From: Octopus vulgaris
Lineage: Eukaryota
Direction: 5' to 3'
Assembly (NCBI GenBank): GCA_951406725.2
Contig: OX597825.1
Coordinates: 66,774,001-66,838,000, forward strand
Length of the DNA stretch: 64,000 nt
Shown here: positions 3,830 through 52,732 of the stretch, piece after piece
Layout of the letters: every line of letters starts with the position of its first letter
Position numbering within the stretch: position 1 is the first letter of the stretch
Notes under the pieces: generated by a model
Told to the model about the DNA's origin: nothing
The model's input: only the letters and a program-made list of their open reading frames with translations
The model's database searches: none
Position numbers and translations under genes: made by a program

Positions 3830-4929
3830 TATGTTGTGTGCGGATAGTTATTTGTTTATCCGTGCTTTATCTGTGGTGTTCACTGAACACAGGTAGAGTG
3901 GGAAGACCTGGAATTCGGGAGAATTATTGTTTTGCTCATATGCCTGTGTCCACTCAGCGGAATCTGTCTAGTACTGGGGTCTCGTATTTGTTGTCGGTGA
4001 ATGGTCAGTCTATATCTTAGTGTAAGCTTAGTTTGACCTATGTACTCTTCATTACATCCTTGACATTTGATAGCGTATATTAAATTCCTTGAAGAACATG
4101 CAAAGTAATTCTTTACGGTAAATATCTGTCCTGATTTGAATTTGTATATTGTGTCTTCAATAAGATTGATGCAAGTCCCACAATTGGGGCGGCCACACTA
4201 TTTGATTGTTGGTGTAGGATTTGTGGAAGGTAATTAAGCACTTGTGAAGAATATTTTGAGAGACAGTGATTGTCTTTTAATCTTGACTATTTTGTGTATT
4301 TCGGATGTTTGTTTCATTCTTGGGTGTTGTCTTAGTAGTGGGATGTTTTGGTGGATAGTATTGTAATTCTTGGGTTGTGTATTGTAATAAAGGTTAGATT
4401 ATTGGATGTATCTGGAGCATTTTCATTTTTCGTAGTTTTTGGATATTTATTGCTTTCACATTTTCTATTCCGTTGTCAACTTTAATGGATATTGTCTTGT
4501 AAGCAGTATTTGTTTTACGAATTTCAGAGTTTGAGACAATTGTGCAGAATTGCTAGAGTAAAGAGAATATTATTCTTCGTATGTTTCAGAATGCATGCGG
4601 TAAACAATAAGTATTGTTTAGAATCTGTTTGTTTGTAGTGAATGTCTGTTTCAATGTTTTTATCTCTTTTGATGATATCCAGGAATGGTAGTTAAGTTTT
4701 ATTGTATTCCATGGTGAAGCTTATATCATTGTTTATGCTGATGTTAGAGGTTTTTGAAATCTGTAAGTTGTTCACATGTATGCGTCCATAGAATTAGGCA
4801 GCCATCTAGGTAACGTTTCCAGTTAGTAGATATTTGTGAAAGTCCAAGCCATATTTTGATTTTGAGTGTTCATATATCTAGACCTCCATGTAAGCTATGA
4901 CTAGATTATCGTAAGTCGGAGCAACTTTT
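3830..4929 (-). pseudogene. Penelope-like element remnant (RT C-terminal half + GIY-YIG endonuclease), disrupted
   Basis: Minus-strand translations: KVAPTYDNLVIAYME, WKRYLDGC (YxDD site), LPFLDII, IETDIHYKQTDSKQYL, CGRPNCGTC, NLIYAIKCQGCNEEYIGQT..RLTIHRQQI; stops and frameshifts present. Confidence 0.85.
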
Positions 4930-8006: not shown

Positions 8007-8337
8007 AATGCATACACCCAAGTCTATGCATCTATTCTTGTAAGAGACTTAGTAATCGCTTAGATTTGAAGAATCCACGTCAGTTTCTTTTACACTTCTC
8101 CGTGAAACTGAGTCTTCCCAAGTTTTAGTGCAAATGTTGTATGTATGTATGTATTTATGTATGTATGTATGTATGTATGTATGTATGTATGTATGTATGT
8201 ATGTATGTATATTTTCAAATTTGCATGCTTTGTTTTATGTATGTATTCTCATGCATATAGTTGCATATCTAGACATGAAAACATATCTTCGAACTCATAT
8301 AAAGAATCTTGCAAGCCAAATCCCAAAACGAAGACTG

Positions 8338-8534
8338 CGTGCGTACCGTTGGCGATTTTTTTCCTCTGTCTTCCCTTCTCTGGATCATTCCTTCTCCTAT
8401 GTTTCCGACGAAGAGCTCCGCTCGAAACGTTAAACCTTCCTTCTTTCCTTCTTTCCTGAGCGTCCAATAATAGTATATTTGTTCCATGTCCTCGCGTTGT
8501 TGTGTTTTTTTGTGTTTTCTTGTTTGGATTAACT
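8338..8534 (+). mobile_element. About 200-bp non-coding HHR-bearing element, family H1 copy 1
   Basis: Near-identical copies at 24295-24497 (+) and 39805-40004 (-); all end GGATTAACT next to TA-rich runs. Confidence 0.85.
8401..8435 (+). ncRNA. Minimal type-I hammerhead ribozyme motif (C4 variant)
   Basis: GTTT-CCGACGA-A-GAGC(TCC)GCTC-GAA-ACGT-T-AAAC. Confidence 0.65.
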
Positions 8535-8790
8535 TTATATACATACGACGGGCTTCTTTCAGTTCCTGTCTCAGTTCACTCACACGGCTTTGGTAAGCCC
8601 GAGGCTACAGTTGTAGACACTTGCCCAAGGAAGCACGCAGCAGGACTGAACCCGGAGCCACGTGTTTGTTAAGCAAGGTACTTACCACACAGCCGGGCGT
8701 ACTCTAGCGACTGAACGAAAAATGTATGCGTGCTTGTACACCCTAATAGAGTAAGAGTGTGAACGTGTATACACAGAGAAAGAGAGAGAG

Positions 8791-8837
<47 letters not shown>

Positions 8838-9243
8838 AATAAGGAAAGAAAGAAGGAAAGAAGGAAAGAAACAAACAACCAAAGAAGGGAGAAGAATGAA
8901 ATTGCAATTGTGTGAGTATCATGCAAGAAATTTCAGAAACAACATCCTCTGTATTTCTGTAACTTTAGAATAAAATTTTATTAGAATTTTTTTTATTCCT
9001 CTATTTCAAATTAAAAATGGAAAATGTTGCGCAAAGTATTTTCTTGTTAGAAAGTTCCACGCGAAAGTAATACATTAATAAGCTATAAAAAAAACATTCA
9101 GTCACAGTTGGTACTGACATATGACGTGAAAAAATCTCTTACAACGTCTCTGTAATGGGTTTTATGTATATTTGCAACAAACCAATGAAGAAATTTACAT
9201 GCAAATTCACAAATACACACGCACATAGAACACATGCACGTAC

Positions 9244-10773
<1,530 letters not shown>

Positions 10774-23956: not shown

Positions 23957-24271
23957 ATATATAAAAAAGGAAATGAAGAAAATGCTGACAAAATAATTTA
24001 AGTAATTTAAGTAATTTAATTAGGTGAAAGTTCTTTTTACCGGTTGCGCATTTGTTATGCTTATCAAAAGATGTTCTTTTAAGAGAGATAGAGTTACTTT
24101 CTGATAGATTTTTGAGGAAAAAATCTATCAGAAAGTAACTCTATCTCTCTTAAAAAATCATCTTTTGATAAGCATAACAAATAACCGGTAAAAAGAACTT
24201 TCACCTAATTAAATTACTTAAATTACTTAAATTATTTTGTCAGCATTTTCTTCATTTCCTTTTTTATATAT
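23957..24271. repeat. About 155-bp near-perfect inverted repeat with a 4-5 nt spacer, within (TA)n
   Basis: Arms 23957-24113 and 24119-24271 are reverse complements. Confidence 0.9.
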
Positions 24272-24294
24272 ATATATACATATACATATGTGAC

Positions 24295-24497
24295 CTCGTG
24301 AGTACCGCCAGCGATTTTTTTTTCCTCTGTCTTCCCTTCTCGGGATCTTTCCTTCTCTTATGTTTCCGACGAAGAGCTCCGCTCGAAACGTTAAACCCTC
24401 CTTCTTCCCTTCTTTCCTGAGCGTCCAATAATACTTTATTTGTTCCACGTCCTCGCGTTGCTGTGTTTTTTTTTGTGTTTTCTTGTTTGGATTAACT
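24295..24497 (+). mobile_element. HHR element family H1 copy 2 (HHR at 24362-24396)
   Basis: HHR identical to 8401-8435; followed by (TA)n. Confidence 0.85.
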
Positions 24498-25827: not shown

Positions 25828-25861
<34 letters not shown>

Positions 25862-25865
<4 letters not shown>

Positions 25866-26045
25866 AGAATTCACAAAAAAACAAAAGACGAAGCCATGTT
25901 GTGTAGACAACAAACAGATGTATTAGTATAACGCTCGGGAAGTGAAAAAGTCTTTAACGTTTCGAGCCTACGCTCTTCCACAGAAAGGAACACAGAAAAA
26001 AACAAGGAGAGAAAATTAAGAATGTGTAGTGGCTAGCGATCTATG
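25862..26045 (-). mobile_element. HHR element family H2 (sister of H1); HHR motif at 25952-25987
   Basis: CTTT-CTGTGGA-A-GAGC(GTAG)GCTC-GAA-ACGT-T-AAAG; abuts (TA)n. Confidence 0.7.
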
Positions 26046-39804: not shown

Positions 39805-40004
39805 AGTTAATCCAAACAAGAAAACACACAAAAAACACAACAACGCGAGGACGTGGAACAAATATAGTATTATTGGACGCTCAGGAAAGAAGGGAAGAAG
39901 GAGGTCTTAACGTTTCGAACGGAGCTCTTCGTCGGAAACATAGGAGAAGGAAAGATCCCGAGAAGGGAAGACAGAGGAAAAAATTCGCCAACGGTACACA
40001 CGAG
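39805..40004 (-). mobile_element. HHR element family H1 copy 3 (HHR at 39905-39939)
   Basis: Reverse complement of 8338-8534; stem II has a G-U wobble change (GTTC). Confidence 0.85.
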
Positions 40005-40064
<60 letters not shown>

Positions 40065-40065
<1 letters not shown>

Positions 40066-40492
40066 ACATTATTGGTGAATTGAAGAAATGGAGCTGAACG
40101 CAGATTGAACAGAAATCGTTTTATTTCATTCTACACGTGTTTCGAAAGGCACAAATTACCAAAATCCGATGGAATAATGGGACCATATTGTGTCTTTCTC
40201 TTCAGGAAGAAAGACACAATATGGTCCCATTATTCCATCGGATTTTGGTAATTTGTGCCTTTCGAAACACGTGTAGAATGAAATAAAACGATTTCTGTTC
40301 AATCTGCGTTCAGCTCCATTTCTTCAATTCACCAATAATGTTCTAATTTCAATTATCCGCACCAACGCACGGTTGCAACACCATATGGTTGTACCTCCAA
40401 CCGTGCTGTTTTACTGCTGTGATTTTTGCTACTAAGGTATCGGTTAAACTTTTGATTAATCTACTACAAGATTATTCATCTTTCTATTTCAC

Positions 40493-52121: not shown

Positions 52122-52732
52122 TGAAGTATATTTACCACCTAAAGTGGCTAACCCTATGGGTCGATGCTACTGTAGTTTGTAGCCCCAGGAAGACATTTCC
52201 TCCAGCTGGCTATTGATAGGGCACAGATAGTGTGTCAATAGCCAGCTGGAGGAGATGTCTTCCTAGGGCTACAAGCTACAGTAGCATCGACCCTTAAGGA
52301 TTAGCCACATTTAGGTGGCAAATATACATCACGATGTCGAGCTGCTACTGTTTATAACTCGCTCAGAGATTTATTTTGCTTGTTCCCACTTTTTCGAGAT
52401 CACTGACTTTTCGTCACTGGATAAGTCTATATATTTGCATTGAGAACCACTTCCAATCGCCAATCGTTGGTTGTCACGCGCTGATGAGGGGTCAATACCC
52501 AGAAACTCGGGTCCGTGTGTATCACGTCAGGCTGGAGATGAGAACGATGACTTCCCTTTGCAAATACTGATATGGCACAGATAGTGTGTCAATAACCAGC
52601 TGGAGGAGATGTTTGCCTGGGGCTACAAGCTACAATAGCATCAGCCCTTAAGGGTTAGCCATATTTAGGTGGCAAATATACTTCACAATGTCGTGTTACT
52701 ACTGTATATATCTCGCTCAGAGATTTATTATA
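52122..52732 (+). mobile_element. Retrozyme/PLE-like non-coding element: inverted segment plus about 155-bp direct repeats around an HHR
   Basis: Inverted arm 52122-52217; direct repeats about 52220-52375 and 52575-52729; candidate TSD TACTATTT at 52114-52121 and 52733-52740. Confidence 0.75.
52475..52519 (+). ncRNA. Minimal type-I hammerhead motif, canonical core
   Basis: CACGCG-CTGATGA-G-GGGT(CAAT)ACCC-A-GAA-ACTCGGGT-C-CGTGTG. Confidence 0.8.

What the first reader, a model, noticed from the sequence alone, without database searches (positions are those of the whole stretch)
8338..8534. H1: three near-identical 200-bp elements with a non-canonical CCGACGA hammerhead core
Copies at 8338, 24295 and 39805 all have C at core position 4 (CCGACGA instead of CUGANGA), an extra A before stem II, a loop-less ACGT helix III and a GUU cleavage triplet. 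Because all three copies share it, the variant is a family trait rather than decay. All end precisely at GGATTAACT next to a TA-rich run, and two of them abut the internal TA tract of SINE family A. A downstream GAGCG could pair with the CGCTC strand of stem II as an alternative fold (inference).
Basis: partly seen in the sequence, partly recalled or inferred. Interest (0 to 1): 0.7.

Follow-up and report, generated by a model that had tools for sequence, protein, structure and literature searches.

The report
Altered-core hammerhead in Penelope retrotransposon ends
These three repeats are short end-pieces of a Penelope-type jumping gene with thousands of copies in this animal genome; they carry a predicted self-cutting RNA (hammerhead) in which one normally fixed core letter changed and was then kept by every later generation of the element, which likely means that only weak cutting, or none, is needed for it to spread.

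Summary
The three copies are real (91.5-93.9% identical to copy 1; copy 3 is on the minus strand) and all carry CCGACGA. They are not a free-standing family: the same 200 bases form the terminal repeats (pLTRs) of full-length Penelope-like elements in this genome (95% identical, flanking an RT + GIY-YIG frame). The window copies are 5'-truncated end-pieces inserted in (TA)n. Three of the four 'oddities' (extra A, loop-less ACGT helix III, GUU) are the published consensus of Penelope minimal hammerheads; only C4 is unusual. C4 is a derived subfamily trait: 7,744 exact C4 against 2,800 U4 matches; U4 marks the older subfamilies, and the youngest, with intact elements, has 936 C4 to 4 U4. The rest of the 31-base core stayed unchanged while flanks drifted, stem I shows one compensatory change, and a larger sister lineage changed A6 to U instead. 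67 of 70 sampled copies span the predicted cut, so templates were mostly uncut. Best reading: a weakened, dimer- or protein-dependent hammerhead still under constraint. Cleavage is untested; U4C is known from a viroid; one key paper could not be read.

The parts
8324..8542 (+). Copy 1: 5'-truncated 3' end (solo pLTR) of a Penelope-like element, subfamily S4; 5' end approximate, last 8 bases shared by parent and TA target
   Evidence: 95.4% to the upstream pLTR of full-length L178; alignment; length 211
8401..8435 (+). Minimal type I hammerhead: stem I 8401-8404 with 8432-8435; C3 8405, C4 8406, G8 8410, A9 8411, extra A 8412; stem II 8413-8416 with 8420-8423; GAA 8424-8426; palindromic helix III 8427-8430; U17 8431; predicted cut 8431/8432
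   Evidence: sequence, column table, pair counts; cleavage is predicted only
8458..8462 (+). Conserved downstream GAGCG, complementary to the 3' strand of stem II
   Evidence: 164 of 201 motif instances (partly picked by this motif); pairing probability 0.69 in copy 1; no covariation
24288..24497 (+). Copy 2, subfamily S5, inside a TA/CA tract
24362..24396 (+). Hammerhead of copy 2, C4 at 24367, predicted cut 24392/24393
39805..40012 (-). Copy 3, subfamily S5, between a TA tract and a CA tract
39904..39939 (-). Hammerhead of copy 3, C4 at 39934, with private changes in stems I and II (predicted to misfold)
   Evidence: stem II probability 0.0

Best explanation
The three repeats are 5'-truncated terminal-repeat copies of an autonomous Penelope-like retrotransposon, likely pasted into (TA)n tracts by the element's own endonuclease and reverse transcriptase, and they carry a minimal hammerhead whose position 4 changed from U to C in the master lineage and which is predicted to cut only slowly, as a dimer or with protein help. 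Shown: identity with the pLTRs of RT/GIY-YIG elements; copy numbers; U4 in older and C4 in younger subfamilies; an otherwise unchanged core; TA-flanked ends; copies that span the cut site. Inferred: reverse transcription starts at a fixed internal site (the GGATTAAC end) as in the anole PLE, and in subfamilies S1-S5 usually stops about 210 bases upstream, possibly at the transcript's 5' end; uncut RNA is the template; U4C lowers cleavage and was tolerated or favoured because of that, while the fold and the catalytic G8 and G12 are still kept.
For: Parent: L178 has pLTR (95.4%) - ORF (74-85% aa to P0001, broken) - pLTR (94.9%) - (TA)n; 11 of 14 ORF loci fetched have the repeat just upstream of the ORF. 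L064 has a 949-aa open frame between 1,452-bp repeats 99.4% alike, both C4; GIY-YIG E 7e-4 and RVT_1 E 3e-4, both under cut-off; atlas score 0.98 to RT/GIY-YIG/HTH_animal clusters. Counts: 7,744 C4, 2,800 U4, 222 decay control, 12,734 by a flank motif, reversed-pattern controls 0. Youngest subfamily 936 C4 to 4 U4; 6 of 8 of its full-length elements are C4 in both repeats. ORF tree of 27 copies is a ladder from U4 copies with long tips (about 0.03-0.05) to C4 copies with tips of 0.000-0.001, key nodes 97-100. Position 4 is linked to a flank site in 56 of 58 copies. Constraint: 1 of 31 core positions against 29 of 144 flank positions vary between subfamilies (Fisher p 0.019; 0.011 and 0.13 at other thresholds); position 17 is U, A or C in 199 of 201 instances; outer stem I pair is G-C/G.U in 126 of 127 H1-lineage and C-G in 37 of 41 sister-lineage instances. 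67 of 70 copies span the cut, none starts at it. Literature: PMC4209133, PMC11167929, PMC3088659.
Against: No cleavage data. Nearest-neighbour folding does not favour the active dimer (-7.3 kcal/mol for S2-S5, -0.9 for S7, against -24.7 for an inactive duplex and -14 to -19 for two monomers). The youngest subfamilies S6-S7 have a U.U mismatch in stem I (20 of 127). The compensatory change is one event between two lineages. The core/flank test loses significance at threshold 6, and S7 and many copies were found through the core pattern, which inflates its apparent conservation. The tree is rooted by assumption on the oldest-looking copy; L181 (S5) has T4 in its upstream repeat and L179 has T3. 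The sharp 5' boundary does not hold in S7 (5 of 6 copies run 470 bases or more upstream). Neptune versus Nematis was not tested by phylogeny.
Confidence: 0.7

Rival explanations
1. The hammerhead is catalytically dead since U4C; the 31 bases are kept as a protein-binding, promoter or dimerisation signal of the pLTR.
For: Two successful lineages each lost a core letter (U4C here; A6U in 40 of 41 sister instances, 19,028 matches). Stem I gained a mismatch in S6-S7. Templates are uncut. In the anole PLE, hammerhead mutants do not affect insertion in vitro (PMC11167929). Predicted inactive folds dominate.
Against: C3-G8, G5, A9, G12, A13, A14, A15.1-U16.1 and non-G at 17 are kept in both lineages; S6-S7 moved to the canonical GUC triplet; stem I covaries once; U4C stays active enough in vivo in a viroid (PMC3088659). 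Some of these letters were fixed by my search patterns.
Confidence: 0.25
2. U4C is nearly neutral: the C4 ribozyme cuts about as well as U4 in its natural context (protein-assisted or with tertiary contacts) and the change hitchhiked with a successful master.
For: One change on the ladder suffices; C4 also occurs in small distant families (6 inspected copies), so the change is easy; U4C weakens a competing hairpin by 0.5-0.9 kcal/mol.
Against: U4C 'considerably decreases activity in vitro' in the viroid case; C4 sits in a CpG that reverts readily, yet no U4 subfamily re-expanded (4 of 940 in S7).
Confidence: 0.3
3. A separate non-autonomous element (retrozyme- or SINE-like) that amplifies through its own short or circular RNA.
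For: 46 of 73 copies are 197-217 bases long; non-LTR retrozymes derive from pLTRs (bioRxiv 10.64898/2026.07.22.740005).
Against: Each subfamily variant of the repeat is found on ORF-bearing elements and evolves in step with the ORF; 5' ends are ragged and some run into the parent's 3' UTR (L038 1,290 bases; L221 about 1,000); 3' ends are fixed, not circularly permuted; no head-to-tail arrays among the loci inspected. A short transcript from solo copies is not excluded.
Confidence: 0.1

Closest known systems
Minimal type I hammerheads in pLTRs of metazoan Penelope-like elements (Cervera and de la Pena 2014, PMC4209133; read: main text parts 1-2 of 4, supplement file 2 part 2 of 3 and a term search; file 1 not searchable)
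   Same: Location in pLTR; extra base between 9 and 10.1; G10.1-C11.1; palindromic loop-less helix III (C-G-U-U rows occur in their table); 4-bp stem I; U-rich flanks; mostly solo truncated copies.
   Different: Their consensus is CUGANGAH and the core exception they describe is U3-A8; no row I saw has C4. Here C4 is fixed in the dominant and youngest subfamilies.
U4C natural hammerhead variant of a viroid (Ambros and Flores 1998, not held; known only through PMC3088659, of which I read one section and passages)
   Same: Same substitution; reported as much slower in vitro but sufficient in vivo.
   Different: A rare variant in a full hammerhead with tertiary contacts, against the majority state of a minimal dimer-type motif in thousands of genomic copies.
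Poseidon element PAc of the green anole (Frangieh et al. 2024, PMC11167929; parts 1-2 of 4 read)
   Same: EN+ PLE, AT-rich target, hammerhead in the pLTR region, fixed internal start of reverse transcription, uncut RNA as template.
   Different: Canonical core; the hammerhead overlaps the start codon, whereas here the cut lies about 420 bases upstream of it (L064); this element has the cysteine linker of Neptune/Nematis type.
Neptune-clade PLEs (as described in Craig et al. 2021, PMC8557442; passages read)
   Same: RT then C-terminal GIY-YIG, CX4CxxC linker, microsatellite insertion, partial tandems and inverted 5' copies.
   Different: Clade not confirmed by tree; Nematis shares the linker.
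Non-LTR retrozymes (bioRxiv 10.64898/2026.07.22.740005, parts 1-2 of 5 read; supplements closed)
   Same: Short non-coding pLTR-related units with a type I hammerhead.
   Different: Those are tandem arrays without coding capacity; these are dispersed solo ends that match coding parents.

Membership tests
PLE minimal type I hammerhead | CUGANGA core | tested here: not met
   C at position 4 in all 3 window copies; U in older subfamilies S1-S2. Hence a variant, not a canonical member.
PLE minimal type I hammerhead | Extra base between 9 and 10.1; G10.1-C11.1; GAAA | tested here: met
   extra A in 64 of 64 covering copies of the flank-picked sample
PLE minimal type I hammerhead | Palindromic, loop-less helix III | tested here: met
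   ACGT at 8427-8430; majority 60-66 of 67 per column
PLE minimal type I hammerhead | NUH cleavage triplet and short stem I | tested here: met
   non-G at 17 in 199 of 201; stem I 89% paired with one compensatory pair; U.U mismatch in S6-S7
PLE minimal type I hammerhead | Located in pLTRs of a PLE | tested here: met
PLE minimal type I hammerhead | Self-cleavage as dimer | not testable with these tools
   no assay; no raw RNA reads available
EN+ Penelope-like element | Single ORF with RT and C-terminal GIY-YIG | tested here: met
   in relatives L064 and L072, 949 aa; Pfam hits under cut-off, atlas 0.98; window copies hold no ORF
EN+ Penelope-like element | Pseudo-LTRs from partial tandems; inverted 5' copies | tested here: met
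   direct repeats 99.2-99.7% in 7 young elements and 96.6% in one; head-to-head pairs L053, L067
Neptune clade | CX2-5CxxC linker between RT and EN | tested here: met
   C-x4-C-xx-C seen in P0001 ahead of the GIY-YIG motif; shared with Nematis
Neptune clade | Microsatellite targeting | tested here: met
   46 of 70 copies end directly in TA repeats, 9 in variants, 15 with no end recognised
Neptune clade | RT phylogeny with reference Neptune elements | not tested
   no named reference sequences fetched
Non-LTR retrozyme | Head-to-tail arrays, each unit with a hammerhead | tested here: not met
   solo copies in the loci inspected; L178 has three TA-separated copies at its 3' end; no genome-wide array search
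Non-LTR retrozyme | No coding parent; circular RNA | tested here: not met
   coding parents at 95% identity; circular RNA not testable

The most novel reading that the evidence does not exclude
Penelope-like elements in this genome tune their hammerheads down: two sister lineages independently fixed different weakening changes in the uridine-turn strand (U4C, A6U) while keeping the catalytic guanosines, the NUH site and a conserved downstream GAGCG anti-stem, because uncut RNA is the template for insertion; the ribozyme is a slow, protein-gated switch, and the near-identical intact C4 and U4 elements L064 and L072 are a natural matched pair to test it.
Probability: 0.25. Interest if true: 0.68.

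Novelty: new variant of a known kind. Interest (0 to 1): 0.42.

Why it matters
What Penelope hammerheads are for is an open question: they are nearly universal in these elements, cut poorly, and are dispensable for insertion in vitro. Here a lineage can be followed through seven subfamilies in one genome, with a core change fixed midway and the most recent intact elements carrying it, and a sister lineage with another core change. That gives ready natural pairs for cleavage and insertion assays. It also means that descriptor searches with CUGANGA miss most hammerhead-like motifs of these two lineages. As a structure it is an ordinary minimal hammerhead, and the substitution itself is known from a viroid.

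Tried and rejected
Rfam scans: no hammerhead model matched; minimal dimer-type motifs may simply fall outside the models. Decay as the source of either state: rejected by the 222-match control and by linkage to flank sites. First search for the parent by Pfam GIY-YIG (148 matches, 30 loci) gave other PLE families (28% aa to P0001); a pattern for a non-TA continuation gave 3 uninformative hits; the parent came from paired core matches and an ORF fragment beside L048. Candidate pairs L061, L062, L063, L065 were not one element (separate copies, an inserted other PLE, or a duplication). GAGCG switch: conserved and plausible by folding (probabilities 0.02-0.70 in 7 natural copies) but covariation not above shuffles (67 of 500); RNAalifold returns only stem II, whose sequence was fixed by my patterns. 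A pseudoknot of loop II with an upstream GGA was considered and dropped because families with other loops lack the partner (by eye). Subfamily ages from copy divergence (medians 1.6-5.1%) are biased by mixed sampling and hand-made class rules; I rely on the ORF tree instead. Sequencing runs: no RNA holder on record listed, contigs only. Contigs of four other coded organism labels show both C and T at 8406 (T share 23, 18, 3, 30% of depth); run kind is unknown, so this is a hint only. Lunse et al. on PLE hammerhead variants and Ambros and Flores 1998 are not held, so U4C or A6U in PLEs may already be in print. Paper searches that found no report of a C4 core in PLEs or cephalopods. Earlier-findings look-ups by sequence, by words and for U4C were blank.

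Full report
Observation. BLAST of copy 1 against the window finds two further full copies, 39805-40002 on the minus strand (93.9%) and 24297-24497 (91.5%). The alignment shows C at core position 4, the extra A, stem II GAGC/GCTC, GAAACGT and U17 in all three, and the shared end before TA repeats. Copy 3 has private changes in both stems. Rfam has no match on 8338-8534.

Copy number. G000 has 2.80 Gb in 227 contigs; the repeats look octopus-like (recalled, and so labelled in earlier AI notes). An exact 31-base core pattern gives 7,744 matches with C4 and 2,800 with T4, reversed controls 0. C4 lies in a CpG; decay on the other strand gives 222 matches, so only about that many T4 copies come from C4. 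A 22-base flank motif gives 12,734; 28 of 70 copies picked by it hold the exact core, and 29 of 70 picked by the core hold the flank motif, which suggests 20,000-30,000 copies (my arithmetic, rough).

The parent. Core matches about 6 kb apart led to L064 and L072: one open frame of 949 aa between direct repeats (1,452 bp at 99.4%; 768 bp at 99.5%), then (TA)n. [quoted passage not shown] Its repeat is only 75-77% like the window copies, but an ORF fragment beside L048 led to 42 matches, 30 loci. Of 14 of these fetched at length, 11 have the repeat just upstream of the ORF, 1 only downstream (L190), 2 more were informative only as ORF or lacked it (L191 none); L178 carries repeats 95.4% and 94.9% identical to window copy 1 on both sides. 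So H1 is the pLTR of an autonomous lineage, and the window copies are truncated ends. Head-to-head pairs (L053, L067) are the usual PLE arrangement (PMC8557442 passages).

History of position 4. In 70 copies picked by the flank motif (the first 70 listed on contig C1), 45 have C, 18 T and 7 do not reach the site. The state is linked to flank sites (56 of 58 at 8394). Hand-made classes on 225 copies give seven subfamilies whose 31-base core differs only at position 4: T in S1-S2, C in S3-S7 (sampling mixed). A tree of 27 ORF segments of 920 bases (4 of 31 candidates dropped as too short) is a ladder: U4 copies L183 and L190 with long tips, then S3, S4, S5, and S7 with tips of 0.000-0.001; support 97-100 at the U4/C4 boundary (rooted on L183 by assumption). 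Exceptions: L181 has T4 in its upstream repeat, L179 T3. The youngest subfamily has 936 C4 and 4 T4 exact matches; of 8 full-length members, 6 are C4/C4, L072 T4/T4, L329 mixed; only L064 and L072 have unbroken frames. C4 therefore arose in the master lineage and accompanied about 0.13 substitutions per site of later ORF evolution.

Constraint. In the flank-picked sample 1 of 31 core positions and 29 of 144 flank positions carry a shared non-CpG variant in at least 5 copies (p 0.019; p 0.011 at 4, 0.13 at 6). Between an S3 and an S7 copy the core is identical, the flanks 105 of 126 aligned bases plus many gaps; S7 was found through the core, so this is partly circular. A sister lineage, 19,028 matches, lies behind an ORF 62% identical to P0001 (L315) and has U at position 6 in 40 of 41 instances, U4 in 40 of 41. 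Across 201 instances position 17 is G only twice, and the outer stem I pair is G-C or G.U in the H1 lineage and C-G in the sister (8 cells, 0 of 500 shuffles, but a single event). Small distant families also show C4. Against: S6-S7 have a U.U in stem I, and folding favours inactive hairpins and duplexes over the active dimer.

Ends and template. 46 of 70 copies pass directly into TA repeats, in two registers (27 and 19), 9 into variants, 15 not scored. 46 of 73 lengths fall at 197-217, at most 7 are longer; S7 copies are mostly much longer. 67 of 70 span the predicted cut and none begins at it. This fits the anole PLE, where reverse transcription starts internally, the hammerhead cuts only with protein, and uncut RNA is the main substrate (PMC11167929). 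That the 210-base limit is a transcription start is inference; Penelope has an internal promoter (PMC2377424 passages).

The downstream GAGCG is present in 107 of 127, 32 of 41 and 25 of 33 instances of the three groups (the first group partly picked by it) and pairs with stem II at 0.51-0.70 in 3 of 7 folded copies, without covariation. It remains a candidate switch.

Comparison. The published PLE consensus already has the extra base, the palindromic helix III and NUH; no row seen there has C4. U4C is known from a viroid, slow in vitro but viable. Nine paper searches found no C4 core in PLEs, but the paper most likely to list one is not held. Earlier AI notes on this genome report other altered cores in PLE families; they are leads, not support.

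Verdict. Real; a new core variant of a known kind of ribozyme motif in a known kind of element. Confidence about 0.9 for the identity as PLE ends, 0.85 for C4 being derived and fixed, about 0.5 that C4 RNA still cuts at a lowered rate. Interest 0.42.

Noticed in passing
window 25860-26040 (-); genome-wide 19,028 matches; L315: Decayed copy of a larger sister PLE lineage whose hammerhead core reads CUGUNGA (A6 to U), with the same stem II, a compensated stem I and the same downstream GAGCG.
   Followed up: partly
window 23957-24271: Inverted pair (89 nt at 100%, 64 nt at 97%) next to copy 2 in the same TA tract; holds a hammerhead-like motif with a U3-A8 core and an ACCGGT palindrome, probably the end of another PLE family.
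   Followed up: partly
window 40062-40345: Inverted pair (138 nt, 99%) next to copy 3 with a canonical CUGAAGA core, a long stem II insert and a palindromic helix III.
   Followed up: partly
window 52481-52515 (+): Another canonical-core hammerhead-like motif (CUGAUGA) of an unrelated family.
   Followed up: no
window 9125-10426 (+) and 3946-4197 (-): A 433-aa frame with LINE-type RT motifs after a microsatellite, and a GIY-YIG-like PLE fragment, 33% to P0001.
   Followed up: no
L081, L086 (G000:C16) and many others: A different young PLE family with repeated intact 781-aa frames, 28% to P0001, with no motif of the H1 type in 9.9 kb.
   Followed up: partly
L061:3455-4900, L073:2100-4300: Another PLE family inserted into TA tails of H1 copies, with a U3-A8 hammerhead-like end and an inverted terminal copy.
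   Followed up: no
L048:960-1440: Internally deleted element joining an ORF fragment directly to a U4 end-piece; single copy among 42 matches.
   Followed up: partly
L064:1700-4380: The 3' UTR of the intact element is about 2.8 kb of degenerate CA repeats, shared with L072 at 98%.
   Followed up: no
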